A stretch of DNA of 64,000 nt from Escherichia phage AV117: sequence record OR352947.1; one strand, given 5' to 3'. A model generated the notes under the pieces. The model saw only the letters and a program-made list of their open reading frames with translations. It searched no databases and was not told the DNA's origin. A program made the position numbers and the translations under genes. Positions 8,828 through 39,441 of this stretch are shown piece by piece; positions within the stretch are counted from its first letter, which is position 1; each line of letters opens with the position of its first letter.

Positions 8828-9928
8828 TTACGCTGCGAAGATTTTATCCCACATCGCAACAACTGCATCTCGATTATACTTCTTCCATACTGCTTCAGCA
8901 CGTTTAACTCGAGCTTCGTATGTGTCAGTGAATTCTAATACAGCTTTTGTGTAAAGCGCAACTACTTCTTTCTTAGGAGTAGAGGAATCAATTTCTACAC
9001 GCACAGTATCTGGGTCGTATTCGAATGTCGCATGAGGATAATCCTTAAAAACTAACTGGATTACAGGGACACCTTTAGAGATAGCTTCAATAGAACTATT
9101 CTCTACTGTACCCGTGTCAGGACACGTATTAATAAGTGCTTTAGCTGTTTTAAGACGTTCCATGATTTCACTGTGTGGAGCATCAATAATAACAGGATAT
9201 TTAGCTGGTGGTGCCCATTTGCTTGGACAGTATCCTGCGCCATTTTCGCCTAGTGCTTTAATCGCTTCAAGAGCAACATCAGTACGACGCATTTTAGTGT
9301 CATAACGTTGTGCACTAATAATCAGATCAGTCGCCGGAAGAACTTCAGGTTTCTCATTCAAACAAATAACCGGATAATCTTCGGCTTCAAACAACGGATT
9401 TGCTCGCCAATAATCATAATCAATTTTGTCAGTCAGACCTGAAGTCATATAACAATATTTGCGTTCAAATTCACGGAAGGCTTTAGTAGGAGCATAACTC
9501 TTACCACCATTCTTATGAATTTGAATAGTCTGGTCCCAAATTTGAACAATGCCACGAGATACCGGTTCAAATGGTGTTGCCATAAAATTCTTATGAACTT
9601 TAGAGAGACCTGCGTCTTTAATTGCCTGAACGGTTAGTTTAGTCGGTTCCATAGTAACAACAAAATCGTATTCATGGATGCCGGCTAGTTCAACAATCTT
9701 ACGAGCCATAGTATAACTCATACCTAGACTGAATTTAGTCAGATGACCAACAGGATGGTGTGTAACTTTCCAGTCACCAAACGTGTCATTGTCAAAGCCG
9801 ATATAATCAATATCAGCACCGATGGACACAAGATATTTCAACACATTTAAATGTACTGCTTCAAGACCACCTTGTACACGGTCAGGATTAAATGGGACTG
9901 CACGAGATGGGATAAACATAACTTTCAT
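8828..9928 (-). CDS. putative GT-B fold glycosyltransferase, candidate hmC-DNA glycosyl(arabinosyl)transferase
   Basis: 366 aa; C-terminal TGTVENSSIEAISKGVPVI resembles the E-x7-E donor-binding motif of GT-B enzymes; lies between rIIA.1 and gene 39 where T4 has gene 60; no T4 agt/bgt homolog seen in the window. Confidence 0.5.
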   Translation of the reverse strand: MKVMFIPSRAVPFNPDRVQGGLEAVHLNVLKYLVSIGADIDYIGFDNDTFGDWKVTHHPVGHLTKFSLGMSYTMARKIVELAGIHEYDFVVTMEPTKLTVQAIKDAGLSKVHKNFMATPFEPVSRGIVQIWDQTIQIHKNGGKSYAPTKAFREFERKYCYMTSGLTDKIDYDYWRANPLFEAEDYPVICLNEKPEVLPATDLIISAQRYDTKMRRTDVALEAIKALGENGAGYCPSKWAPPAKYPVIIDAPHSEIMERLKTAKALINTCPDTGTVENSSIEAISKGVPVIQLVFKDYPHATFEYDPDTVRVEIDSSTPKKEVVALYTKAVLEFTDTYEARVKRAEAVWKKYNRDAVVAMWDKIFAA

Positions 9929-28569: not shown

Positions 28570-28932
28570 TTAAAAGAATTTAAATTTTTTCTTGGTCCGT
28601 TCATTAAAAGCTTGTTGTACTTGCATTGTAACACATTTTTCAACATGCGGTGCAAGTTCTGCTTTTCTGTCCTGGTCAAGAACTGCAAAGTCCATTACGA
28701 TTTTACCATCAACCCAGTCTAGTTTTGTAATATAGACTATATGATGAGAACCATCTTCAAGTGTAATCAGAATCTCTTGAATGACATTTTCCATTGCTGA
28801 ACGGATAATTTTAAGAGATTCATTAAACACTCGTTCTTTGCGAATGTCTTCCCCTTCCGAAGAAGGGGATTCATCAACGATTTCTAGATTTAAATCATCG
28901 AGATTATTCATCGAAATCTTCCATTTCGTCAA
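28570..28932 (-). CDS. 40: gp40-like protein (head vertex assembly chaperone position)
   Basis: 120 aa between 41 and uvsX as in T4; sequence identity not verified. Confidence 0.5.
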   Translation of the reverse strand: MTKWKISMNNLDDLNLEIVDESPSSEGEDIRKERVFNESLKIIRSAMENVIQEILITLEDGSHHIVYITKLDWVDGKIVMDFAVLDQDRKAELAPHVEKCVTMQVQQAFNERTKKKFKFF

Positions 28933-30076
28933 GGTCGTTTTCTATATCTGCTGCAGACGGAGCATCAGAAGTTTTAACCGGAACTTTAGTTGTGGCTTTG
29001 CAATTAATAAGGTCATTAACAGCGTCATCAACTTCTTTAATAGAAGAGATAGCACCTAGTTTATATTTAGTTTCAATTGCATCTCGGAAAGGTTTGTGTT
29101 TAAACAAAGGTCCCCAGAATTCTACACAATCAGTAGCTTTAGCACGCCATGATTTTTCTTCACGAATCATTTCGCCAGTTTCTTCGTCAAGGAATTCACG
29201 AGCATACCAACCAGCTTTAGGCTTAACTACAAAACCAATTTCAGTTGCCATTTCTAACAAGCCACTGAATGGGTCGATACCACCATCAAAATTAACAGTG
29301 ATTGGGAAAGTAGATTTTTCTTTAACGGTGCGAGATTTTTCTGCTTTCAACGTGAAGTCATAACCGGTCAATTCTGTACCTTCTTTAACCTGACGTTTAG
29401 AGATAAAAAATACCGTGTTGGCAGAATAAAGAATACCTGTACCACCACCCATAATCTCTTTAGGATACAATCCGCCGATTTCCATTGCTGTATGGTTGAT
29501 TGCAACACATGGAATATCTTTAATAGTCAGATAAGGAGTCACAATGCGGAACAGAGATTTAAGTGCCTTAGCACGAGACATATCACCTACAACTTTCTCG
29601 TTCAATGCATCTTCAGTTTCTTTCTTAGATGCAGTATTACCGATTGAATCGATAAAGATAATAACTTTATCACCGCGTTCAATCGCGTCAAGCTGATTAG
29701 TCATATCAACTTTAAGTTGTTCGACAGATTGAATCGGAGTATGAACTACACGGTCTAAATCAACACCCATTGAACGAAAATAAGATTCTGAAGCACCAAA
29801 TTCCGAATCATAGAACAAACAAATTGCATCTTTATATTTCTTCATATATGCTGCAACCATGGTCAGCCCAAACAACGTTTTAAAGTGTTTAGAAGGAGCA
29901 GCAAAAATAGTTAAGCCTGATTGCAACCCGGCATTCAGTGCACCACCTAATGCAATATTCAACATCGGAATACGAGTAGGGACTTCATCGCGATTATTAA
30001 ACAACTTAGACTTAGTCAAGTCTGCAGTCATTTTAGAAGTAGAAGCTTTAATCAGACGAGATTTTAAATCAGACAT
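28904..30076 (-). CDS. uvsX: UvsX recombinase (RecA/Rad51-like)
   Basis: 390 aa; RecA core, Walker-type motifs; length as T4 UvsX. Confidence 0.95.
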   Translation of the reverse strand: MSDLKSRLIKASTSKMTADLTKSKLFNNRDEVPTRIPMLNIALGGALNAGLQSGLTIFAAPSKHFKTLFGLTMVAAYMKKYKDAICLFYDSEFGASESYFRSMGVDLDRVVHTPIQSVEQLKVDMTNQLDAIERGDKVIIFIDSIGNTASKKETEDALNEKVVGDMSRAKALKSLFRIVTPYLTIKDIPCVAINHTAMEIGGLYPKEIMGGGTGILYSANTVFFISKRQVKEGTELTGYDFTLKAEKSRTVKEKSTFPITVNFDGGIDPFSGLLEMATEIGFVVKPKAGWYAREFLDEETGEMIREEKSWRAKATDCVEFWGPLFKHKPFRDAIETKYKLGAISSIKEVDDAVNDLINCKATTKVPVKTSDAPSAADIENDLDEMEDFDE

Positions 30077-30175: not shown

Positions 30176-30724
30176 TTAACGAGCCCATTTGATAATTTCT
30201 GTAATCAAATTATTACGTTCGCTTGCATTAAATCCTATAACTTTGTTAGCACCATCATGATTAAGTAATTGATACGTTTGGATTTTGTTATGAATTGCAA
30301 ACTCTTCAAAATATGAAATGACTGTATTAAAACCGAATGAAGACAAAGTAATAAGGTCGTCTTCAAAACTTTCAGTCATTTCGTTACGTGTTAAAATAAT
30401 TGTGAACACATCATGGTTTTGGCAAAGACGAACATAATCCTGTTCATAAACGTCAAGAACCGAGTCCACATCTTGTCGAATACGTCCATAAACCCAGTTA
30501 CTAATATATCCACGGTCTAACAGATAAATCTTAGTAGGGTCTAAATAATTCAACATCGTTTCGAAACAGCCAACTTCATTTCGAGACTTAACATCGAAAC
30601 GTCCATCAACTGTTCGTTTAGGGAAATCAATCTTTACATATCTTTCACTAATTTCCATTATGTCATTAATGAAAGTTGTTTTACCAGCATTATCCGGGCC
30701 ATCTACTAAAATAATTTTAGCCAT
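30176..30724 (-). CDS. thymidylate-kinase-like P-loop nucleotide kinase
   Basis: 182 aa; P-loop ILVDGPDNAGKTT (compare Tmk GxEGxGKTT) and LLDRGY (Tmk DRY-like motif). Confidence 0.55.
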   Translation of the reverse strand: MAKIILVDGPDNAGKTTFINDIMEISERYVKIDFPKRTVDGRFDVKSRNEVGCFETMLNYLDPTKIYLLDRGYISNWVYGRIRQDVDSVLDVYEQDYVRLCQNHDVFTIILTRNEMTESFEDDLITLSSFGFNTVISYFEEFAIHNKIQTYQLLNHDGANKVIGFNASERNNLITEIIKWAR

Positions 30725-30725
30725 T

Positions 30726-31625
30726 TTATTCCTCGATTACGACATCTTCATATTTAGGTATATTATACGGCGAAGAAATTAAAGCATTAAAGTAGATGAA
30801 CTCGCCAAGACCTGGATGGAATACTTCTTCAGGATTTTCGAAGTATTGAATCTTCGGACGTCCTTTAAGAATTTGATAGTACTCAGTTTTAGTTGGTTTA
30901 AAAATTCGAATCAGCGCTTCTTCAGGATACTTATTTCTGTCGAAGCTATTATTTGGATCGGTTATATAAAGCGGTTGACCTAATTGAATTGCACATTCAA
31001 CCACTTGTTCAAAACGATAGCACGGGTCACTAATTCGAAATGGATGAAAAATACCATCTAGATGAATAGGAGCCAAATCACCTACAAGACGCTGCATGAT
31101 GGAAGGACGTATAACTTTCTGCGTTACGATAATCTTATTACCATCTGCACCTGCGTTAACCAGCACTTCTTTTTGACGTTCATTCAACACAGTAGTTTGA
31201 AGTGAACGATTAACAGACAACATGTCGGTTTTTAAGAATTCGTCAATATAAAAACGTGGTTTATTAGGGTCTGCAGTGATATTGAAATTGAATTCTACGT
31301 CAAAAGTGCCGTCATATCCAGTGATATCTGTGATTAGAAAATCACAATCATAATAATCAATTAATGAATCAACCACAAATTCATTTTCAGACCAGAAATA
31401 TTTACGAGTGTTATATGCGTTATCTTTATACCATAATGGAACAAACTTAAATTCTGGGAAAAGTCGTTCACATTCTTTAATATCAGATGCATTACGTGGA
31501 TATGTAATCACATCACCCGGATTAGCACGGTGCAAATGAAGTTGGAAGTTGCCATCCTTAAGGATAGCATACTGTCCAGTTTCATAAGACCGCATACTCA
31601 AGATAGGTACGCGGAAAATAGCCAT
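30726..31625 (-). CDS. hypothetical enzyme (299 aa) in the T4 beta-gt map position
   Basis: no recognisable motif; 1-nt gap to downstream kinase and shared stop/start with the hydroxymethylase. Confidence 0.5.
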   Translation of the reverse strand: MAIFRVPILSMRSYETGQYAILKDGNFQLHLHRANPGDVITYPRNASDIKECERLFPEFKFVPLWYKDNAYNTRKYFWSENEFVVDSLIDYYDCDFLITDITGYDGTFDVEFNFNITADPNKPRFYIDEFLKTDMLSVNRSLQTTVLNERQKEVLVNAGADGNKIIVTQKVIRPSIMQRLVGDLAPIHLDGIFHPFRISDPCYRFEQVVECAIQLGQPLYITDPNNSFDRNKYPEEALIRIFKPTKTEYYQILKGRPKIQYFENPEEVFHPGLGEFIYFNALISSPYNIPKYEDVVIEE

Positions 31626-32341
31626 TAGTCAAGGAATCCTTTAACATAATCAAAATCACGTTCAAACACATGGGCACTTACCATGGTATGAGTATAATCA
31701 CCAACTTCTACACCACATTCTTTAGCGATATAATGAAGTAATTTTCCTTGGAGATAAAAATCCAACTGCATAACAACAGCACAGTTCTGAGAACGCATAT
31801 GGCAGTGGGTATAAAGCTTACCATCACGAATATAATAAGTCACTGAGTCAGTACATGGATATTCAAGTGTTTCGTCCGAATCAAGCAAAGCCTGATCTGA
31901 ACTTTCAAGAATTTGAAACACAACTCTTCGAGAGTTAGGTTTTTCTTTAAGTTCTTTTAGAAGAGTTGGTAACTGGGCCGCAATGCGAGGACCGTAGAAA
32001 GTGTTGAAGTTTGCAGGCAAAGCATCTGATTTCGGTTTAGAAATAAATTTAGCGACGTTAGGATATGCCTTAAATGCTTCTTCTGCATCAGTACCACCAG
32101 AAATCATAAATTTCCAGAAATCTTCAGCATATTCATAAGAGATGCGATTAATACGTGGGTCGGTCATTTTGAATGATGAAGGGGTATCAACAACTACTGT
32201 CATAGACCCAATTTCATTACAACGTCCAATACGAGAATCAGTAACGAACTGTGGATTTTCTAAAATTTCACGATTGACAGCTTTAAATGCGGATTGAAAA
32301 TCTTCGGCTTTAATATATTTCATTGTGTTATGTTTTCCCAT
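31625..32341 (-). CDS. 42: deoxycytidylate 5-hydroxymethyltransferase (gp42-type, thymidylate-synthase fold)
   Basis: 238 aa; PNSRRVVFQIL, YPCTDSVTYYIRDGKL (catalytic Cys), MRSQNCAVVMQLDF align by eye with the T4 gp42 blocks I recall; an Asp appears at the base-specificity position. Confidence 0.78.
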   Translation of the reverse strand: MGKHNTMKYIKAEDFQSAFKAVNREILENPQFVTDSRIGRCNEIGSMTVVVDTPSSFKMTDPRINRISYEYAEDFWKFMISGGTDAEEAFKAYPNVAKFISKPKSDALPANFNTFYGPRIAAQLPTLLKELKEKPNSRRVVFQILESSDQALLDSDETLEYPCTDSVTYYIRDGKLYTHCHMRSQNCAVVMQLDFYLQGKLLHYIAKECGVEVGDYTHTMVSAHVFERDFDYVKGFLD

Positions 32342-32354
32342 GTTTACCTCAATA

Positions 32355-32390
32355 CAGTTATTATATACTCAATTCATAAAGCTTATTTGA
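32355..32390 (-). promoter_or_regulatory. candidate MotA-dependent middle promoter upstream of the hydroxymethylase gene
   Basis: minus strand AAGCTTTA (MotA-box-like) - 11 nt - TATAAT, then GAGGT RBS; approximate. Confidence 0.4.
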
Positions 32391-32478
32391 ATTTCTTAGC
32401 GATGTTGATATAACGTAGAGCTTCGGCTTAGTATTCCAATTGAACAGGTCCTTTAATCACTTTAGCCGCTTTAGTTTC

Positions 32479-32502
32479 AAAAAGGCCCTTATGGGCCTTT
32501 TT
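32479..32502 (-). terminator. strong symmetric hairpin terminator after the 386-aa gene
   Basis: aaaaaggccc-ttat-gggccttttt: 10-bp stem flanked by A5/T5, could terminate in either direction. Confidence 0.55.
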
Positions 32503-32579
32503 AAGAATTTGTTCGTTGCTGTTAATTTTAATAGTCAAAATCTCTTCGTTAAGTTGGTGGTTAAAAGTTTTTCTAGAAA

Positions 32580-33740
32580 TCATTCTGGGTACCTCAAAGC
32601 GTCATCAGAGTTAGTTATATCAATAATAGATATAGAGTTTTCTGATAACCCATTTTTAGATAACTGACGTTTATAATATCTTTCACAATATGTACACGTC
32701 GTCCCACAGATTTCATTAGCACAATCGAAATCTGGATGTTTGAACCACCTTTTTTCTAAAAAGCCGTCTAACAAAGAGGTTTCAATATTTACCGTATGTG
32801 AAAACTCAGTCTCATTTTCAAGAGTGAAAATGGTCTCTAAAGGCTTCCACAATTCCAACAAATTACCTTCAAATTTTTCAGAAGCATAAGCTTCAAGAAC
32901 TTTCAAAATGTAGTCTGTGCTACCTGTACGTCCTGAAACTTTGAATTGAGTGATACCAATATCATTATAAAGTTTCAAATCTTGAGGACGAACAAAACGA
33001 GTTCTCAACCAGTTAAATGGGTCTGTATCACGAGCTTTAATACAGTGTTGCATTGGATATCCATTTAAGGATTTGGCATCATCTACTGTAACGTCAGTGC
33101 TATGGAAAATATAGCAAGAGTCACGATAGCTACAATGTGTTGTATACCCTTTACCAGCATTAGAACAGAACTCATTTACAAGAACTTCAAATATTATATT
33201 GTTCTTATTACAAAACTCTGCTGCACGTTTCAGGAAAGAAACTGAACGGTTCTTATGAATTCCACAGCAGACCTTTTTGATATTATATTGGTCATGCAAG
33301 TATTTGATTTGAGTTACAGCATCGACATGTAGAATTGTTGAAACTTCAATCTCAATGTCTTTATTGACTTCACGAACAATTTCCATAACAACAGGGTTAG
33401 CGATAGTAATACGCCATACGCCTATTGACCAAAGATACTGAACATAATCCTGAATAGCTTTCTTCTTCCACTCAACTAGTTCTCTTTTTGAACCAGGATT
33501 TATCGTGTTGAGTGTATAGTTAAAGCAAATACCTAATTCGTTACAACGTTTAACGTAATCTTCTAACATCTTTTTGTCAACGTCAGGAAGCCTAAAATCA
33601 GGTCTGGCTGCTACAAAAGCCATTTCTCTTGTAGAGCCGTATACTTCGTTTATCAAGCTATTAGGATAAGTTTTATTGAGCTCTACGATTTTATCAAGAA
33701 GAGCTAAATCAAAATTCGTTCCGATTTTAAAAGTATTCAT
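32580..33740 (-). CDS. hypothetical Cys-rich enzyme (386 aa)
   Basis: C-terminal cluster CANEICGTTCTYCERYY (contains C-x3-C-x2-C) plus internal VCCG and CS..AGKGYTTHCSYRDSC; possible metal/Fe-S site; function unknown. Confidence 0.5.
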   Translation of the reverse strand: MNTFKIGTNFDLALLDKIVELNKTYPNSLINEVYGSTREMAFVAARPDFRLPDVDKKMLEDYVKRCNELGICFNYTLNTINPGSKRELVEWKKKAIQDYVQYLWSIGVWRITIANPVVMEIVREVNKDIEIEVSTILHVDAVTQIKYLHDQYNIKKVCCGIHKNRSVSFLKRAAEFCNKNNIIFEVLVNEFCSNAGKGYTTHCSYRDSCYIFHSTDVTVDDAKSLNGYPMQHCIKARDTDPFNWLRTRFVRPQDLKLYNDIGITQFKVSGRTGSTDYILKVLEAYASEKFEGNLLELWKPLETIFTLENETEFSHTVNIETSLLDGFLEKRWFKHPDFDCANEICGTTCTYCERYYKRQLSKNGLSENSISIIDITNSDDALRYPE

Positions 33741-33800
33741 TTTTTTTTTTGCATCCCACGTTAATTGATGCGATGGTTTTTGCAGGTCTTACTTAAATTA

Positions 33801-34202
33801 TTATAGATTCGGTTTATATGATTTAAATGTTTCGAATTCGCCTTTATTCATAAGAGCTTTGAATTCGTCAGGACGCATAGCTTTGTCGTCGATAATCCAA
33901 TCATATACTGGTTTATGTGTTAGCAAATTATGGTACTTCAATCCAATGTTTGCCAAGTTCTGAATCAGACTTGGGAGAATGTCAATTGCTATACGACCAG
34001 GACCGACTGACTTCATACCGCGAGCAGTGTAAAGCGTTATGGTATGCCCTGCATCATACAGGGCATTAATGGCAGACACCATTTCGACGTCTGGTTTGAA
34101 GTTCACGTAATCACGATTGTTATTCCACTCTGTTATACAATCATCGACATCAAAACAAAGATTAAGCATGTTTTCTACACGGTGCATTAGATTCGTTCCC
34201 AT
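33801..34202 (-). CDS. HAD-superfamily phosphatase, small cap-less (KdsC/GmhB-like) form
   Basis: 133 aa; motif I FDVDDCIT (DxDx[TV]), LYTAR, K, DWIIDD; overlaps the upstream gene by 16 nt. Confidence 0.6.
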   Translation of the reverse strand: MGTNLMHRVENMLNLCFDVDDCITEWNNNRDYVNFKPDVEMVSAINALYDAGHTITLYTARGMKSVGPGRIAIDILPSLIQNLANIGLKYHNLLTHKPVYDWIIDDKAMRPDEFKALMNKGEFETFKSYKPNL

Positions 34203-35872
34203 TGATGAGTGATATCGCCACCGATTGGACGATAAGAAACACCGGTTTCTTTATCAGTTAGTACCCATTTACCAGGATTTTTTGTAATCAGAGTAGCCGT
34301 TACAGGTTCTGCTACGTCATAACTAATAGAGCCGTCCTGAAGTACACGGCCCATGTTACGTAATTGCTTAGTCAGAAGTTCCATACCTTTATAATATGCG
34401 GCTACCGCTTTAAGTGGATTATTCTTGAAATAACCACCTAATGCAATCCAGATAATTGCCGCTGCCAAATGATGATACTCGTTAAACGAACTCATCTTTC
34501 CATATTTGTAAACTAATGGATTGATGTTAATAGACACATTACAAGTTGTTTCATCGATAGTAAACTGTCCCCAGGTCGGATTAGCATTGAATTCATCATA
34601 ACCTGAAACAGCGTAAAGCACTTTAGCTTCATCATACAATTTTGGGCCGTAAATCTTGGTTTCGCCAAAATATCCACGAGGGTCGATAAACTTGACTTCG
34701 CCGTTATCAGTAATCATAGTATTACTGAAGTTCGGGTCACCATGAATAACAGAGTACTGTCCCTGAGAACGGTTATGATAACGAATAAGGTGTTCTAAAG
34801 CTTGTTTCAGCATTGGTTTCAGACGCCCAATCTTAGTGTAGTTCACATGTGTGATTTTACCAAATGAATCAATCAATGGTTGAATACTTTCACAACGATC
34901 AATGACTTTAGTATAGAATTCTTTAGTGAAATCACGACGAACAGTTTCAGGACTTACAAAATAAGTGTCTGTGCTGAATTTCAGTGCGTCTAAAATTGCA
35001 TCAACAATTTGTGGACGAGCAAGACTCGATTTGGATTTAATATATTCAAATGCTGGCTTACCTTTAATGCGTTCCATTTCAAAGTTATTTTCATTAACAG
35101 AAACTAACTGAGGAACTGAATCTGATTTCACTTTAAGATACCATGAAATCTCATCTTTCTGAAGAGCTCGACCCTGTTCGGTTAATGCGAATTTAGTTAC
35201 AGTTTCTTCACCAATTTCAACTGCATTAAAACTACGATTAAGTTCACGAACTTCATGAGCTTTTTCAAGTTTAGGCATATCACCTAAATCAATTAGATTC
35301 ATAAGCTCTGATTTATTGAATGCGCTGCCGTAAAGGAATTCTACGAAATCGCGTCCTTTGCAGTATTCATGAATTTCCTCATCAGTAGAACCCATATAGA
35401 ATTCCCAGTCTTTGAACTGATAAATTCCTACAACATTACCACCTGTTGAACCTACGTTAGTGATATTTTCACCGTCGAAATTATATCGACATTCGTCACC
35501 CTTAACATAGATTGCGTTAACATTCCAAGACCATGAACCAAAATCAGGAATAATATCACACCAGTTAACAATTACATTATGGCCGTCTAAATCTTTGTGC
35601 AATTTAGCAAGAGCATAAGCAGAACCATACGCTTCATCAACTGTACGAATAGTCACATTGAACCCTTCTTGCTCACAATAAGCTCGAACAGTTTCAGCAA
35701 ATTTTGAATGAACTACTACAATAATTTCATCTGCGCCAAGGTCAGAATAAATTGTATACAAATTGCTCAGAATAGTGTCTTGTTTATAATTAACAAGCAC
35801 CTTAGGAATATGATGCGTTATTGGATACAAACGAGTTGCCAGTCCAGCACCAAGAATAACAGCTTTTTTCAT
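34187..35872 (-). CDS. bifunctional sugar-1-phosphate nucleotidyltransferase (N-terminal) / APH-like anomeric sugar kinase (C-terminal)
   Basis: 561 aa; N-terminal AVILGAGLATRLYPIT..IPK (RmlA/GlmU-type GxGTRL motif); C-terminal VIHGDPNFSNTMI and FIDPRG (HxDxxxxN catalytic loop and IDxxG of aminoglycoside/choline-kinase fold). Confidence 0.7.
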   Translation of the reverse strand: MKKAVILGAGLATRLYPITHHIPKVLVNYKQDTILSNLYTIYSDLGADEIIVVVHSKFAETVRAYCEQEGFNVTIRTVDEAYGSAYALAKLHKDLDGHNVIVNWCDIIPDFGSWSWNVNAIYVKGDECRYNFDGENITNVGSTGGNVVGIYQFKDWEFYMGSTDEEIHEYCKGRDFVEFLYGSAFNKSELMNLIDLGDMPKLEKAHEVRELNRSFNAVEIGEETVTKFALTEQGRALQKDEISWYLKVKSDSVPQLVSVNENNFEMERIKGKPAFEYIKSKSSLARPQIVDAILDALKFSTDTYFVSPETVRRDFTKEFYTKVIDRCESIQPLIDSFGKITHVNYTKIGRLKPMLKQALEHLIRYHNRSQGQYSVIHGDPNFSNTMITDNGEVKFIDPRGYFGETKIYGPKLYDEAKVLYAVSGYDEFNANPTWGQFTIDETTCNVSININPLVYKYGKMSSFNEYHHLAAAIIWIALGGYFKNNPLKAVAAYYKGMELLTKQLRNMGRVLQDGSISYDVAEPVTATLITKNPGKWVLTDKETGVSYRPIGGDITHQWERI

Positions 35873-35913
35873 GTTGTGGTCCTCATTGGTAAGTAGGAGT
35901 ATTGTACACTATT

Positions 35914-36057
35914 CTAGTTAAAGCATTCATACTTTGCTTGTAGTCCAATCATAATCCATCCGATTATAAGAGTCGGAACCATTACTGGAGCCGTTAAGCT
36001 CCAGTAGATAGTCATGACAAGCATCAATAGTAAAAGTCCTATTGTTATTGCTTTCAT
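35914..36057 (-). CDS. small membrane protein (about 47 aa), translationally coupled to the isomerase gene
   Basis: MKAITIGLLLLMLVMTIYWSL...; ATG overlaps the SIS gene stop (ATGA); GAGG RBS; approximate. Confidence 0.35.
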   Translation of the reverse strand: MKAITIGLLLLMLVMTIYWSLTAPVMVPTLIIGWIMIGLQAKYECFN

Positions 36058-36689
36058 TGTTCGCCTCGTAACATGGCACCTAGTGCACCGCCAGGGTGGA
36101 ACTTAAGGAAGTCATTAGAGGTAAATCCACGCTCAGACGAAAGGTTGATAGCAAACGTATCGATAAGCGCTAACAACAATGTAGTGGACATAGTCGGAGC
36201 CAGAGAATTCTCATCAACCTCTACTGCGATGCCTGTACAGAAAGAGTAATCAAAAAGGGCTTCATTTTCTTGTGGAATGTCTGGGTTACAATGCAACAGA
36301 ATCTGTTTGACGTTAGGACGAATCATTTTAAGATGCTTAGCCACGCCTATCATTTCTTCAGTTTTACCAGAACGACTAATATGAATCAACACATCATTAG
36401 GCGCAATGAATCCTGCATCACCGTGAGAATAATGCCCAGTGTTCAAGTACATACTCGGGATACCGAGTGAAGCAAATGTCTCAGAAGCTTTAGTTGCAAT
36501 ATTAGCATTCTTACCAACACCCGTAATAATTACTCGGCTTTCATAATTACTAAGTCCAGGGCGTCGAAGAGTTTCTAGAATAGCATTATAACGAGCAGGG
36601 TTTTGACTAATTACTTTGGCCATAGCGGCCAAAGAAGAAGCTTGTTTTATGATTGCGTCAATAGCGATAGTAATAGGAGTAGTTTTCAT
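36054..36689 (-). CDS. arabinose-5-phosphate isomerase-like SIS-domain protein (KpsF/GutQ-type, no CBS domains)
   Basis: 211 aa; FASLGIPSMYLNTGHYSHGDAGFI, ISRSGKTEEM, LAPTMSTTLLLALIDTFAI and RGFTSNDFLKFHPGGALG align block-for-block with the KpsF motifs I recall. Confidence 0.78.
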   Translation of the reverse strand: MKTTPITIAIDAIIKQASSLAAMAKVISQNPARYNAILETLRRPGLSNYESRVIITGVGKNANIATKASETFASLGIPSMYLNTGHYSHGDAGFIAPNDVLIHISRSGKTEEMIGVAKHLKMIRPNVKQILLHCNPDIPQENEALFDYSFCTGIAVEVDENSLAPTMSTTLLLALIDTFAINLSSERGFTSNDFLKFHPGGALGAMLRGEQ

Positions 36690-36729
36690 ATTTCTCTCAT
36701 TTAATTAGTTTACCGTCCATGACATTATA

Positions 36730-39441
36730 TCAAAAATCGAACATATCGAACAGAGATGCTTTCTTCTCGTAATCGAGTTTCGCTGCTGATGTGAATCCTT
36801 CAAGTGGTTTAATAAATGTCTTCTCAAGGAGAACAGTGTAGTCCATCCAATGAAGTACGTCGTCTTTAATTAAATCTGTGATTTCAGTACCAGAAGGCCA
36901 TGCGATACATTTATCACCGAATGGGTTTCCTTCACGTAAAGGCAGAACATATACTTTTTCACCTTCTACAACTTGCGGTGCATCGATATTACCTTTGATA
37001 GCCCGGTTATACGTCAGAATTCCACGAATATGGAATGGACATTTAGGACCAGGGAATCCACCTACATCATATTTAGCAATGTTATTCGCAGAAGATACCG
37101 ACGCGATGCTAATATAATTCAATTGACGGAATTCTTTTTCAAACTCTTTAAAATATTCTTGTAATGATTCTTCACCTTCTTGAAGCATACGACGAATACA
37201 TTCTTTAAGAGCTTTCTGTACTGCTTTAGGAGTCGAAGATTTCTGAGTCTCTAGACCCATGATTTTGAGTTTAGGCTCAGCGTAACGAGTACCTTCCATA
37301 TCCCACACGTTTAATGCATAACGTTTCTTACCAGTCCAGAATCCGCCAATACCTTTAGAACCAAGCGGAGGCCCAGCGATAGCTTCTCGGTCCATGAACA
37401 TTAAGTGTTGTTTATTGTTCATGTATTCACACATTTCACGGAAACCTCTATCAATAGCTGGTTCCATACGTTCACGTGCAAACTTATCTAAGAAGTCTAC
37501 CCAATGGTTGGTATCACGGAATTTAGATTCACCAACCTTATCGATAATTTTATCAGCAGATACGTAAATAGAGTCTGTATCACCGTAAAGAACGAAAGCT
37601 TCACCTTCTGTGCCACAAACTTCATTCAGATATTCATTAACTTTACGTTCAATCCACTGTAAAGCCATTTGACCAAATGTTGTGATTGCAGTAGCATTAC
37701 GCAAATCATAATAACGGAACCAAACGTTTCCAAGTGCACCATAAAGTGAGTTGATAAGCAATTTACGGTTAATTTGGGCAGTCATACCTGCAACTTCAGT
37801 ACGTTGAGCTCTAAACAACATTTCATTAAGAGATTTAGCAGACAACTTTTTAATCTTTTCTTTAATCTCATCACTGAAGTCGAAACGATAATCAACATCT
37901 AATGGTTCGTCAACAGAAAGATTAGGATTATGCAATGCCTCTTTAATTATTTCACCATTACGTTGAGCTGCAAGCATGTAACCTTTATGTTCTTTACGTT
38001 GATTAAAGACCTTAGTGATTTCGGTTGGAACTACACCGTCACGGTCTTTATAATACATCATGCCGTTAGGAGAACAACTGTACACATCAGAAGGACGCTC
38101 AGCGATTGCGTTAATATAATCATGCAGTGGAGCTACTTTAAACGTTCCTGCTATTGTTTCTGGGCTAATATTCACTTGGCGAATAATACTTGGATACAGA
38201 GATGTAAGGTCGAAACTCATTACATATTTGTATCGATTTGGAATAGGTTCCTTAACAAAAGCGCCAGGATAAGGTTGAACCGGGTGAGAACGACCTTGTG
38301 GAATCACCTTGTTCTGCTCTTTAAGGCTATTAAAAATAATAGCATCCCATGTTTTAATTGGACTAAACACAGATTGAATCTGTATCTTAGCATAATAACC
38401 CATGTCCAAGCTCAAGTTAATGAACTGACGTTTACCATCAATTTGCAATACACGATACACGTCGATAATGTTATAAGAAATATATCGTTGGTGATTGCTT
38501 TCACGAAGCTTAGAAATAGGGCCGTCATATTTCAGTTTACCAACGTTCAATTCAAATTCTGAAATGTAATCCAGAGAATATGATGGTTGATTGGTAAAAG
38601 AGAATTTTTTGTAAAGGTCAATGTAATCAAGAACAGAGATACCGAACAATGTAATGATTTCACGAGAACCATACATGTTTTCGATAACTTTAACACGAGT
38701 TTTACGATGTGGTGACAACCGTTTTGCTGTGGATTCGCCAAAAATATTCTTGATTCGGTTATACACATATGGAATATCAAATGACTCAACGTTCCATCCA
38801 GTCAAAATGACAGGAGTTTTCTGTTGCCAGAAGTTGAGATATTCCATCAACAATTCTTTTTCGTTATCGAACGGCATATAAATGATTTTATCGATAATTT
38901 CGGATGGAACTTCATCACCACCTTGTTCTTGAAGCTTAGCCGCAATTTCGATAGACCATTCTTCTACATTACCATATGGAGAATTCAATAGATCAAATAC
39001 GTAGAACCTGTCGTCAATTGAGTCATAATGGGTGATAGCATCAATCGGATGTTTTGCTTGTGACGGCTCAGGGAACCCGTCCGGAGATGTTACTTCGATG
39101 TCGAAGTTAGCCACACGAATTTTTGTATGGTCGTATTTGATTTCATAGTTATAAGTGTCAGACAAATACGCTAATTTGAAATCGTCCATGCCAAGTGCTT
39201 CAAGTCCGATATCTTCCATGCGTTTAATCCATTGGGAGGCATCACGCATATTGGCGAACAACTTACGAGTACACGGCTTACCGTAGATATCGAAATATTT
39301 CGTAGCCTGACTTTCTGGACAATGAGCAAACAGTGATGGTTTATATTCTACTTCACGAGTACGTTCACGGCCATTAGAATCGATGTAACGTTCAAAAATT
39401 GAATCACCAATCTGTTCAACCGTTAAGTAAAATTCTTTCAT
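36730..39441 (-). CDS. 43: DNA polymerase gp43 (family B)
   Basis: 903 aa; exo motifs (FDIEV, YNIIDV), polymerase motifs (DxxSLYPS, YGDTDS); N-terminus MKEFYLTVEQIGDSIFERYIDSNGRERTREVEYKPSLFAH matches the RB69 polymerase as I recall it. Confidence 0.97.
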   Translation of the reverse strand: MKEFYLTVEQIGDSIFERYIDSNGRERTREVEYKPSLFAHCPESQATKYFDIYGKPCTRKLFANMRDASQWIKRMEDIGLEALGMDDFKLAYLSDTYNYEIKYDHTKIRVANFDIEVTSPDGFPEPSQAKHPIDAITHYDSIDDRFYVFDLLNSPYGNVEEWSIEIAAKLQEQGGDEVPSEIIDKIIYMPFDNEKELLMEYLNFWQQKTPVILTGWNVESFDIPYVYNRIKNIFGESTAKRLSPHRKTRVKVIENMYGSREIITLFGISVLDYIDLYKKFSFTNQPSYSLDYISEFELNVGKLKYDGPISKLRESNHQRYISYNIIDVYRVLQIDGKRQFINLSLDMGYYAKIQIQSVFSPIKTWDAIIFNSLKEQNKVIPQGRSHPVQPYPGAFVKEPIPNRYKYVMSFDLTSLYPSIIRQVNISPETIAGTFKVAPLHDYINAIAERPSDVYSCSPNGMMYYKDRDGVVPTEITKVFNQRKEHKGYMLAAQRNGEIIKEALHNPNLSVDEPLDVDYRFDFSDEIKEKIKKLSAKSLNEMLFRAQRTEVAGMTAQINRKLLINSLYGALGNVWFRYYDLRNATAITTFGQMALQWIERKVNEYLNEVCGTEGEAFVLYGDTDSIYVSADKIIDKVGESKFRDTNHWVDFLDKFARERMEPAIDRGFREMCEYMNNKQHLMFMDREAIAGPPLGSKGIGGFWTGKKRYALNVWDMEGTRYAEPKLKIMGLETQKSSTPKAVQKALKECIRRMLQEGEESLQEYFKEFEKEFRQLNYISIASVSSANNIAKYDVGGFPGPKCPFHIRGILTYNRAIKGNIDAPQVVEGEKVYVLPLREGNPFGDKCIAWPSGTEITDLIKDDVLHWMDYTVLLEKTFIKPLEGFTSAAKLDYEKKASLFDMFDF

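What the first reader, a model, noticed from the sequence alone, without database searches (positions are those of the whole stretch)
34187..35872. Bifunctional nucleotidyltransferase / APH-fold sugar kinase fusion
The N-terminal 230 aa or so carry the RmlA/GlmU-type motif (ILGAGLATRLYPIT...PK) of sugar-1-phosphate nucleotidyltransferases. The C-terminal 300 aa or so carry the HGDxxxxN catalytic loop and IDPRG motif of the aminoglycoside/choline-kinase fold used by anomeric sugar kinases (AmgK/NahK-like). Fused in one chain, they would convert a free sugar or sugar-5-P to an NDP-sugar. The nucleotide used (UDP, GDP, CDP, dTDP) cannot be read from the sequence.
Basis: partly seen in the sequence, partly recalled or inferred. 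Interest (0 to 1): 0.8.

Follow-up and report, generated by a model that had tools for sequence, protein, structure and literature searches.

The report
Phage UDP-arabinose kinase/nucleotidyltransferase fusion (known)

Summary

The window is a Mosigvirus. The protein is 557/561 identical to RB69 ORF53_52c (gp52:53), proposed for UDP-arabinose synthesis in 2018. Lee et al. (NAR 2026) equate it with AfhE of phage HY126 and report that He et al. [quoted passage not shown] I could not read He et al.

The overlapping downstream phosphatase is 100% identical over residues 5-133 to PDB 9iqw. The pathway is Ru5P, A5P, Araf-1,5-P2, Araf-1-P, UDP-Araf, then arabinosyl-5-hydroxycytosine DNA.

Verdict: interpretation supported, already known, low interest.

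By-products worth more attention: the adjacent U32-family gene, next to a chorismate mutase in 48 related phage records and missing from the Acinetobacter phage examined, may be an O2-independent pyrimidine hydroxylase. Single-chain HAD-SIS-NT-kinase fusions occur in giant-virus-like contigs.

The parts
34187..35872 (-). Target gene: 561-aa bifunctional D-arabinose-5-phosphate 1-kinase / Araf-1-phosphate uridylyltransferase (ortholog of RB69 ORF53_52c = gp52:53, equated with AfhE of HY126)
   Evidence: ORF. 557/561 aa identical to frameshift-corrected RB69 ORF53_52c. PHROG 4098 E 1.8e-294. Literature.
35258..35872 (-). N-terminal domain (residues 1-205): sugar-1-phosphate nucleotidyltransferase, with GAGLATRL-x7-PK signature and invariant G10, R14, K24, D106, D195, D198
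34352..35257 (-). Kinase domain (residues ~206-507): APH/choline-kinase (eukaryotic-like kinase) fold, with K227/E241 pair, HGDPNFSN catalytic loop (D379, N384) and IDPRG Mg-binding motif (D397)
34190..34351 (-). C-terminal tail (residues 508-561): small beta-rich extension of unknown role, found only in the phage-type homologs
   Evidence: AF2 pLDDT 79-87 with short strands. Aligned in homologs down to 35-41% identity on the BLASTP scale, and absent from the 22 other rows of A1, including four at ~39% identity.
33801..34187 (-). HAD-type phosphatase (RB69 gp51, equated with AfhF): removes the 5-phosphate of Araf-1,5-bisphosphate. Its ATG shares a base with the target's TAA (TAATG). The longest ORF extends to 34202.
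   Evidence: ORF. TAATG junction. NCBIfam TIGR01689 EcbF/BcbF capsule phosphatase E 4.3e-13. 100% identical over residues 5-133 to PDB 9iqw. Role from Lee 2026 citing He 2026.
36054..36689 (-). D-arabinose-5-phosphate isomerase (SIS domain; RB69 gp55): Ru5P to A5P, which supplies the kinase substrate
   Evidence: Pfam SIS E 1e-10. NCBIfam KpsF/GutQ 2e-32 and KdsD 7e-31. PHROG 5670.
31625..32341 (-). Thymidylate-synthase homolog = 5-hydroxy-dCMP synthase (RB69 gp48): makes the acceptor base
   Evidence: Pfam Thymidylat_synt E 1.5e-15. About 98% identical to PDB 9iqc/9ir2/9iqu. Activity shown for RB69 gp48 in Lee 2026.
30726..31625 (-). Putative DNA arabinosyltransferase 1 (RB69 gp46:47), a single intact 299-aa ORF here: the consumer of UDP-Araf
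   Evidence: ORF. No Pfam hit. Role and the 'split is a sequencing error' statement from Lee 2026.
8828..9928 (-). Putative arabinosyltransferase 2 (RB69 ORF003c/gp3 homolog): adds the second arabinose
   Evidence: tblastn 99.2% over 366 aa. Role proposed in Thomas 2018 and Lee 2026.
30176..30724 (-). Thymidylate-kinase-like nucleotide kinase (RB69 gp45), a member of the cluster
   Evidence: ORF. RB69 annotation. Lee 2026 Table 1. No Pfam hit here.
32580..33740 (-). U32-family protein (RB69 gp50) inside the cluster; role not established (see noticed in passing)

Best explanation
The gene encodes the sugar-activating enzyme of the phage's DNA-arabinosylation pathway. The upstream SIS isomerase diverts host ribulose-5-phosphate to D-arabinose-5-phosphate. 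The C-terminal APH-fold kinase domain uses ATP to phosphorylate the anomeric C1-OH, giving arabinofuranose-1,5-bisphosphate. The product of the overlapping downstream gene, a small HAD phosphatase, removes the 5-phosphate. The N-terminal RmlA/MurU/LicC-type nucleotidyltransferase domain then condenses Araf-1-phosphate with UTP to give UDP-D-arabinofuranose and pyrophosphate. Phage GT-B arabinosyltransferases transfer the arabinose onto 5-hydroxycytosine in phage DNA, which protects it from host nucleases.

What I showed here: the two folds, conservation of the catalytic residues, near-identity to RB69 gp52:53, and conserved linkage to SIS, HAD and ThyA-like genes. What is taken from the literature on the ortholog: the substrates, the order of steps and the use of UDP. 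What is inferred: that this biochemistry transfers to this exact protein.
For: Folds and motifs. Invariant catalytic residues in both domains across 49 homologs.

Identity: 557/561 aa to corrected RB69 ORF53_52c. The gene block is >95% identical in about 150 Mosigvirus genomes.

Literature: Thomas 2018 (PMC6024577) showed a single 561-aa ORF and proposed a role in UDP-arabinose synthesis. [quoted passage not shown] UDP-Araf serves as donor for DLP3 glycosyltransferases on RB69 DNA.

The neighbouring proteins match deposited structures: HAD 100% over residues 5-133 to 9iqw, ThyA-like about 98% to 9iqc, 9iqu and 9ir2.

Independent comparative support: homologs at 35-36% identity in a 350-kb jumbo-phage-like contig and a T4-like contig keep the SIS / NT-kinase / HAD-or-small-ORF / ThyA-like neighbourhood. 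Single-chain HAD-SIS-NT-kinase fusions exist. The Thanatos ortholog TH1_060 (54% identity) is essential for phage growth and is inactive on xylose-1-P, consistent with a specific substrate.
Against: I could not read the primary biochemical paper (He et al. 2026) or Mahler et al. 2025, so substrates, order of steps and nucleotide rest on a secondary account. The AfhE sequence itself was not available for direct comparison. That 9iqw, 9iqc and related entries come from HY126 is inferred from consecutive accession codes and molecule names.

Lee 2026 Table 1 still lists the alternative order (phosphatase on A5P first, kinase on free arabinose). Sequence profiles alone do not place the C-terminal domain in a kinase family above threshold. 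No activity was measured for this protein.
Confidence: 0.88

Rival explanations
1. Same enzyme and same product, but the salvage-type order. The HAD phosphatase first converts A5P to free D-arabinose. The kinase domain then acts as a true anomeric kinase on the free sugar (AmgK/NahK or FKP logic), and the NT domain makes the NDP-sugar.
Against: The text of the same paper, following He 2026, states that AfhE phosphorylates Araf5P to Araf-1,5-P2 and AfhF then dephosphorylates it. The phosphatase's structural neighbours reported there include heptose-1,7-bisphosphate 7-phosphatase. The nucleotide-heptose pathways (isomerase, kinase on the sugar phosphate, HAD phosphatase, NT) use the bisphosphate route (my knowledge of HldE/GmhB and HddA/GmhB/HddC).
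Confidence: 0.08
2. The pathway is as proposed but the nucleotide carrier is not UDP (for example CDP, GDP or dTDP-arabinose).
Against: AfhE is reported as a UDP-D-arabinose pyrophosphorylase. UDP-Araf is accepted by the related DLP3 transferases acting on RB69 DNA. MurU, RmlA and GalU-type U/T-specific enzymes score almost as well.
Confidence: 0.05
3. A LicCA-like enzyme: a kinase for a small alcohol such as choline plus a cytidylyltransferase, unrelated to DNA modification.
Against: Identity to these enzymes is only 10-20%. The gene is invariably linked to A5P isomerase, HAD and ThyA-like genes in phages with arabinosylated DNA. The literature assigns arabinose chemistry.
Confidence: 0.01
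4. A DNA-modifying glycosyl- or phosphotransferase that itself attaches the pentose to cytosine, as suggested for Thanatos TH1_060.
For: CD-search labels the N-terminus as GT-A-like. The Thanatos authors kept this open after failing to find pyrophosphorylase activity with xylose-1-P.
Against: The GxGTRx(n)K signature and the fold neighbours are those of pyrophosphorylases, not Leloir transferases. Separate GT-B arabinosyltransferases exist in the cluster, and the DLP3 GT-B enzymes gp76+gp77 transfer arabinose from UDP-Araf onto RB69 DNA in vitro. Xylose-1-P is simply the wrong substrate.
Confidence: 0.01

Closest known systems
RB69 ORF53_52c / gp52:53 (Thomas et al. 2018, PMC6024577; Lee et al. 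2026, PMC13326640)
   Same: [quoted passage not shown]
   Different: Four substitutions (H92Y, Q233H, S447T, A471V). The RB69 reference record carries an extra C that splits the gene, whereas the window ORF is intact.
AfhE of E. coli phage HY126 (He et al. 2026, Nat Chem Biol, as described in PMC13326640)
   Same: Bifunctional kinase/nucleotidyltransferase architecture and a cluster with the AfhF phosphatase. The window's phosphatase is 100% identical over residues 5-133 to PDB 9iqw and its ThyA homolog is about 98% identical to 9iqc, so the characterised phage is probably the same species.
   Different: Orthology is inferred through RB69 and through the neighbouring genes.
Nucleotide-heptose pathways (GmhA / HldE or HddA / GmhB / HldC or HddC)
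   Same: Identical logic: a SIS isomerase makes the sugar phosphate, a kinase phosphorylates C1 of the sugar phosphate, a HAD phosphatase removes the distal phosphate, and an NT makes the NDP-sugar. HldE is likewise a kinase/NT fusion. HddC is the best PDB sequence-profile hit of the NT domain.
   Different: The heptose kinases have ribokinase (HldE) or GHMP (HddA) folds, not the APH fold (my knowledge). The sugar here is a pentofuranose and the product goes onto DNA, not LPS or capsule.
AmgK-MurU and NahK
Bifunctional salvage enzymes FKP (L-fucokinase/GDP-fucose pyrophosphorylase) and Leishmania D-arabino-1-kinase/GDP-D-Arap pyrophosphorylase
   Same: One chain combines an anomeric kinase and a pyrophosphorylase. 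The Leishmania enzyme also activates D-arabinose (my knowledge).
   Different: Those kinases are GHMP-fold, act on free sugars, use GTP and make the pyranose form. They are not homologous to the kinase domain here.
LicC / LicA (and LicCA fusions)
   Different: Their substrate is choline and their nucleotide CTP. Identity is 11-20%, and the genomic context is entirely different.

Membership tests
Sugar-1-phosphate nucleotidyltransferase (NTP_transferase, PF00483; RmlA/GalU/MurU/LicC type) | Profile match above the curated threshold | tested here: met
   PF00483 E 8.3e-10, 39.1 bits against a cut-off of 21.2, residues 3-99. PF12804 also scores above its cut-off.
Sugar-1-phosphate nucleotidyltransferase (NTP_transferase, PF00483; RmlA/GalU/MurU/LicC type) | N-terminal G-x-G-[TS]-R-L ... 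P-K nucleotide-binding and catalytic signature | tested here: met
   GAGLATRLYPITHHIPK at residues 8-24. G10, R14 and K24 are invariant in 49 homologs.
Sugar-1-phosphate nucleotidyltransferase (NTP_transferase, PF00483; RmlA/GalU/MurU/LicC type) | Rossmann-like alpha/beta fold of the family, with conserved acidic metal ligands | tested here: met
Sugar-1-phosphate nucleotidyltransferase (NTP_transferase, PF00483; RmlA/GalU/MurU/LicC type) | Pyrophosphorylase activity and nucleotide specificity | not testable with these tools
   Reported as UDP-D-arabinose pyrophosphorylase for AfhE.
APH / choline-kinase (eukaryotic-like kinase) superfamily, PF01636 and relatives | Profile match above the curated threshold | tested here: not met
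   Only sub-threshold hits for this sequence: Fructosamin_kin 17.1 against 22.4, EcKL 16.2 against 22, RIO1 16.1 against 22. PDB profile search finds RIO2 at E 0.023. Several homologs do carry precomputed PF01636 hits.
APH / choline-kinase (eukaryotic-like kinase) superfamily, PF01636 and relatives | Bilobal kinase fold | tested here: met
APH / choline-kinase (eukaryotic-like kinase) superfamily, PF01636 and relatives | Brenner catalytic loop HxDxxxxN, Mg-binding Asp (DFG equivalent), and the Lys-Glu ATP-binding pair | tested here: met
   H377-G-D379-x4-N384 and I396-D397-P-R-G400. D379, N384, D397, K227 and E241 are invariant, and H377 is present in 48 of 49. K227 lies in predicted strand 224-229 and E241 in helix 232-247.
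AfhE-type bifunctional A5P kinase / UDP-Araf pyrophosphorylase of arabinosyl-5hoC phages | NT-then-kinase two-domain architecture of about 550-565 aa | tested here: met
   Full-length homologs occur in T4-like phages.
AfhE-type bifunctional A5P kinase / UDP-Araf pyrophosphorylase of arabinosyl-5hoC phages | Sequence orthology to the characterised enzyme | tested here: inconclusive
The protein is 99.3% identical to RB69 gp52:53, which Lee 2026 equates with AfhE. Neighbouring gene products are 100% and ~98% identical to PDB 9iqw and 9iqc, which are presumed to be HY126 proteins.
AfhE-type bifunctional A5P kinase / UDP-Araf pyrophosphorylase of arabinosyl-5hoC phages | Cluster with A5P isomerase, HAD phosphatase, ThyA-like 5hodCMP synthase and GT-B transferase | tested here: met
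   Window genes at 36054-36689, 33801-34187, 31625-32341 and 30726-31625. The linkage is conserved in distant phages.
AfhE-type bifunctional A5P kinase / UDP-Araf pyrophosphorylase of arabinosyl-5hoC phages | A5P 1-kinase and Araf-1-P uridylyltransferase activities | not testable with these tools
   Literature on the ortholog only.
AmgK/NahK anomeric kinases of free sugars | Specific sequence or structure relationship beyond the shared APH fold | tested here: inconclusive

The most novel reading that the evidence does not exclude
The NT-kinase enzyme is the core of a portable Ru5P-to-NDP-D-arabinofuranose module that is not confined to T4-like phages. Jumbo-phage-like contigs keep it next to SIS, HAD and ThyA-like genes. 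In contigs with a giant-virus gene content (Rpb2, Rpb10, MutS-HNH; or SNF2, Ulp1-like protease, Asn synthase), and in a Ceratiomyxa transcriptome, all four activities are fused in one ~900-950-aa HAD-SIS-NT-kinase chain. That would imply D-arabinofuranosylation, of DNA or of virion glycans, in viruses of eukaryotes. Within the phage protein, the phage-specific 55-aa C-terminal tail might dock the phosphatase so that the three steps are channelled.
Probability: 0.3. Interest if true: 0.5.

Novelty: already known. Interest (0 to 1): 0.15.

Why it matters
UDP-D-arabinofuranose is not a normal metabolite of Enterobacteria. This enzyme is what lets the phage build it from a host pentose-phosphate intermediate and coat every cytosine of its genome with arabinose, which blocks many restriction enzymes and affects CRISPR and type IV defence systems. 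That matters for phage therapy and for enzymatic synthesis of rare NDP-furanoses. However, the point was predicted in 2018 and is reported as established in 2026 for a near-identical phage.

Tried and rejected
(1) Primary papers (He et al. 2026, Nat Chem Biol; Mahler et al. 2025, Cell Host Microbe) are not held. Searches for AfhE, HY126 and 'arabinofuranosylation' found only citing papers. The biochemistry is therefore cited second-hand from PMC13326640.

(2) A sequence-only search of the PDB finds no close structure of the target (best LicC, E 2e-5). A profile search still fails to place the kinase domain (RIO2, E 0.023).

(4) The afdb50 fold library was unavailable, so the U32 model could not be compared with RlhA, TrhP or UbiU models. 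hhalign to E. coli RlhA (E 8e-6) and UbiU (not significant) was used instead.

(5) The promoter/terminator scan of 32300-36800 was no better than shuffles (15 against 16.4, and 3 against 2.8), so it is uninformative.

(6) Nucleotide specificity could not be derived. Model coordinates are not exposed to scripts, and the best hits span C-, G-, T- and U-specific enzymes.

(7) I tested whether RB69 ORF049c and the window's truncated version are a diverged chorismate mutase. There is no Pfam hit and BLASTP to the Klebsiella-phage CM gives E 6.9, so this is rejected at that sensitivity.

(8) I considered and rejected LicCA-like and DNA-transferase roles (see rivals).
Full report
**Observation.** Window 34187..35872 holds one intact 561-aa ORF on the minus strand. 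It has an ATG start and a GAGG element 8 nt upstream. The ORF is not a chance reading frame. It matches PHROG 4098 end to end (E 1.8e-294), has 309 homologs at E<=1e-5, and Pfam NTP_transferase scores above its curated threshold (39.1 against 21.2 bits).

**What the window is.** The next gene upstream is a T4-type DNA polymerase, and the 4.3-kb block around the target is 98-99% identical to about 150 Mosigvirus (RB69-like) coliphage genomes. Against the RB69 reference the gene is 97.6% identical in DNA. The reference carries one extra C that splits it into ORF052c and ORF053c. With that base removed the proteins differ at 4 of 561 positions. Thomas et al. 2018 re-sequenced exactly this region and showed that it is a single 561-aa ORF, ORF53_52c, which expresses as a single band at the position expected for the predicted 63.9 kDa. 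They proposed it as a candidate for UDP-arabinose synthesis.

**Domain evidence gathered here.**
- The N-terminal ~100 residues hit NTP_transferase and MobA-like NT models and the N-termini of AglF, archaeal GlmU, RmlA, MurU and HddC models.
- A profile of 49 homologs finds HddC (6.6e-14), LicC and GDP-mannose pyrophosphorylases among PDB sequences.
- An AlphaFold2 model built on that alignment is confident (pLDDT 93.9, pTM 0.90).
- The kinase assignment is not reached by sequence profiles for this sequence. Pfam hits are all sub-threshold and the PDB profile search finds only RIO2 at E 0.023.
- It is backed by invariance of the whole catalytic apparatus in 49 homologs down to ~28% identity: K227, E241, G378, D379, N384 and D397-P-R-G400. 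The NT residues G10, R14, K24, D106, D195 and D198 are also invariant.
- A C-terminal tail of ~55 residues (508-561, pLDDT 79-87) is present only in the phage-type homologs.

**Context and pathway.** All genes here are on the minus strand, in the order below.

| Window coordinates | Gene |
|---|---|
| 36730-39441 | DNA polymerase |
| 36054-36689 | SIS-domain arabinose-5-phosphate isomerase (KpsF/GutQ 2e-32) |
| 35914-36057 | 47-aa hydrophobic ORF |
| 34187-35872 | The target |
| 33801-34187 | Small HAD phosphatase (TIGR01689, 4e-13) |
| 32580-33740 | U32-family protein |
| 32428-32583 | Short ORF |
| 31625-32341 | ThyA homolog |
| 30726-31625 | 299-aa glycosyltransferase candidate |
| 30176-30724 | Thymidylate-kinase-like protein |
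| 28904-30076 | UvsX |

The phosphatase's ATG shares a base with the target's stop codon (TAATG).

Lee et al. 2026 (PMC13326640) show that RB69 DNA carries beta-D-Araf-(1,3)-alpha-D-Araf on 5-hydroxycytosine, and that the ThyA homolog (gp48) makes 5-hydroxy-dCMP. They model gp55, gp52:53 and gp51 as the Ru5P-to-NDP-Araf pathway. They also report that He et al. [quoted passage not shown] AfhF (equated with gp51) is reported as the Mg-dependent phosphatase that converts Araf-1,5-bisphosphate to Araf-1-phosphate. UDP-Araf is used by DLP3 transferases on RB69 DNA in vitro.

The window's phosphatase is 100% identical over residues 5-133 to PDB 9iqw, and its ThyA homolog is ~98% identical to 9iqc, 9ir2 and 9iqu. 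These consecutive entries are very probably the He et al. structures. If so, the characterised phage is practically the same species as the one in the window. That last step is an inference, because the tool reports no organism.

**Independent comparative support.**
- Homologs at only 35-36% identity keep the same company. One is in a 350-kb jumbo-phage-like contig: SIS, GT2, NT-kinase, HAD, ThyA-like, T4 EndoIV-like, dCMP deaminase.
- Another is in a T4-like metagenomic contig: SIS, NT-kinase, small ORF, ThyA-like, thymidylate kinase, dCMP deaminase, UvsX.
- An Acinetobacter phage has API, NT-kinase, HAD, ThyA-like, GT, TMPK, GT, GT.
- More distant homologs (~30-35% identity over ~88-90% of the query) are 890-955-aa single chains with the order HAD-SIS-NT-kinase. 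This is a Rosetta-stone argument that the four activities form one pathway.
- The Thanatos ortholog (54% identity) is essential for plaque formation and did nothing with xylose-1-phosphate, as expected if the substrate is specific.

**Mechanism, with status of each step.**
1. Ru5P to A5P by the SIS isomerase. Family assignment shown here; activity inferred.
2. A5P plus ATP to Araf-1,5-P2 by the APH-fold domain, with D379 as catalytic base, N384 and D397 binding Mg, and K227/E241 binding ATP. Fold and residues shown here; substrate from the literature.
3. Removal of the 5-phosphate by the HAD protein. From the literature; its sequence identity to a deposited structure is shown here.
4. Araf-1-P plus UTP to UDP-Araf plus PPi by the NT domain (R14 and K24 on the phosphates, Asp residues on Mg). 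Fold and residues shown here; nucleotide from the literature.
5. Transfer to 5hoC by gp46:47 and the gp3 homolog (window 8828-9928, 99.2% identical to RB69 gp3). Proposed in the literature.

The logic is that of nucleotide-heptose synthesis (SIS isomerase, C1 kinase acting on a sugar phosphate, HAD phosphatase, NT). The kinase fold is different.

**Rivals.** The salvage-type order (phosphatase first, kinase on free arabinose) survives only as a table entry in Lee 2026 and is contradicted by that paper's own text. I give it 0.08. A carrier other than UDP cannot be excluded from sequence, since the best hits span C-, G-, T- and U-specific enzymes, but it is contradicted by the reported activity. 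I give it 0.05. LicCA-like and DNA-transferase readings are rejected on context and signature, at about 0.01 each.

**Comparison and novelty.** The protein is a member of the NTP_transferase family (all tested features met). It is a member of the APH/choline-kinase superfamily by fold and catalytic motifs, though not by Pfam threshold. It is the RB69 gp52:53 protein. Its equivalence to AfhE is near-certain but indirect. The qualifications are that a separate phosphatase is needed between the two reactions and that the AmgK/NahK likeness is only at the fold level. The finding is already known, and I score interest at 0.15.

**By-products.**
(i) *The U32-family gene inside the cluster has no established role.* Lee 2026 lists it as a 'sugar or heterocycle reductase' and does not link it to the U32 hydroxylases.
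- It is 80-87% identical across enterobacterial and Shewanella T4-like phages.
- It has ten invariant cysteines.
- Its ~50-55%-identical homologs sit beside dCMP deaminase and thymidylate kinase, or beside NT5C, dNK and nucleoside deoxyribosyltransferase.
- In 48 phage records (Klebsiella, Yersinia, Serratia, Enterobacter, Edwardsiella and others) there is a small chorismate-mutase homolog. In the one locus examined in full (Klebsiella phage KLB31) it lies directly between U32 and the ThyA homolog, and most listed hits also overlap a thymidylate-synthase annotation. It scores CM_2 E 1.3e-9, above threshold.
- From my own knowledge, prephenate, the product of chorismate mutase, is the oxygen donor of the U32 hydroxylases TrhP, RlhA and UbiU/V.
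- The target has homologs in 367 phage records, including 57 from Acinetobacter. U32 has 221, with Acinetobacter not among the ten commonest names. The Acinetobacter cluster I examined goes straight from HAD to ThyA-like.
- The ThyA-type 5hodCMP synthase uses O2. The U32 protein may therefore be an O2-independent hydroxylase that keeps the modification going in anoxic hosts. This is a hypothesis and may already be discussed in the papers I could not read.

(ii) *The fusion contigs.* Two of the three HAD-SIS-NT-kinase fusion contexts I examined look like giant viruses. The third, P0092/L005, is ambiguous. One fusion comes from a Ceratiomyxa transcriptome.

**Dead ends** are listed under Tried and rejected.

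Noticed in passing
window 32580..33740 (-): The U32-family protein (RB69 gp50) inside the arabinosylation cluster has no established role. It has ten invariant Cys and aligns to the U32 signature of RlhA, the 5-hydroxycytidine synthase (E 8e-6). It has the U32 fold, and its homologs sit in deoxynucleotide-metabolism contexts. It was absent from the Acinetobacter phage cluster examined, and Acinetobacter is not among the commonest names in U32 hits although 57 Acinetobacter records carry the target. Hypothesis: an O2-independent, prephenate-dependent pyrimidine C5-hydroxylase that backs up the O2/flavin-dependent 5hodCMP synthase.
   Followed up: partly
L013 7155..7394 (Klebsiella phage KLB31) and 47 other phage records; corresponding slot in window 32342..32583: In many related phages (Klebsiella, Yersinia, Serratia including LC53, Enterobacter, Edwardsiella, Erwinia) there is a bona fide AroQ chorismate mutase of about 79 aa (Pfam CM_2 E 1.3e-9). 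In KLB31 it lies directly between U32 and the ThyA homolog. This links U32 to prephenate supply.
   Followed up: partly
window 32428..32583 (-): The ORF in that slot (RB69 ORF049c, 79 aa) shows no detectable similarity to the chorismate mutase. In the window it is cut to 51 aa by a 39-nt deletion relative to RB69 that creates a TAA. It is possibly a decaying gene.
   Followed up: partly
L002 8001..10781, L006 5545..8283, L005 14..2854; proteins P0084, P0088, P0089, P0091, P0092, P0109: Single-chain HAD-SIS-NT-kinase fusions of 890-955 aa (all four activities of the Ru5P-to-NDP-arabinose route). Two of the three contexts examined are giant-virus-like (Rpb2, Rpb10, MutS-HNH; SNF2, C48 protease, Asn synthase), and the third (L005) is ambiguous. 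One fusion is from a Ceratiomyxa fruticulosa transcriptome.
   Followed up: partly
window 34190..34351 (-), residues 508-561 of the target: A C-terminal tail of about 55 aa, beta-rich in the model (pLDDT 79-87). It is present in the phage-type homologs (down to 35-41% identity) and missing from the other homologs in the alignment and from the fusions. Its function is unknown; possibly docking or oligomerisation.
   Followed up: no
window 35914..36057 (-): A 47-aa strongly hydrophobic ORF between the isomerase and the target. Its ATG overlaps the isomerase stop (ATGA). RB69 annotates a shorter 36-aa ORF054c, and the Klebsiella phage has a transmembrane mini-protein at the same place.
   Followed up: no
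window 34185..34189 (-): The target's stop and the phosphatase's start overlap as TAATG, which suggests translational coupling of the kinase/NT and the phosphatase. A second in-frame ATG lies 15 nt upstream, at 34202.
   Followed up: yes
window 30726..31625 (-) and 34187..35872 (-) compared with L001 (RB69 NC_004928): Both genes that are split in the RB69 reference record (046/047 and 052/053) are single intact ORFs in the window. This supports the published view that the splits are sequencing errors. The extra C of the reference lies at gene position 655.
   Followed up: yes
PDB 9iqw, 9iqc, 9ir2, 9iqu compared with window 33801..34187 and 31625..32341: Deposited structures named 'Capsule biosynthesis protein' and 'Thymidylate synthase' are 100% (over residues 5-133) and ~98% identical to the window's HAD phosphatase and ThyA homolog. 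No structure of the target itself is deposited.
   Followed up: yes
proteins P0106, P0110, P0107, P0111, P0115 (777-790 aa): Another architecture: NT-kinase followed by a C-terminal cupin (weak MannoseP_isomer hit in P0106; P0106 and P0110 are named 'mannose-6-phosphate isomerase-like' by their source). It possibly replaces the SIS isomerase.
   Followed up: no
L014 1..13560 (350-kb contig): A jumbo-phage-like contig with a variant cluster: SIS, a GT2-family (not GT-B) transferase, NT-kinase, a Hydrolase_3-type HAD, a 303-aa ThyA-like protein, a T4 endonuclease IV-like protein, Flavodoxin_2, UDG and dCMP deaminase.
   Followed up: no
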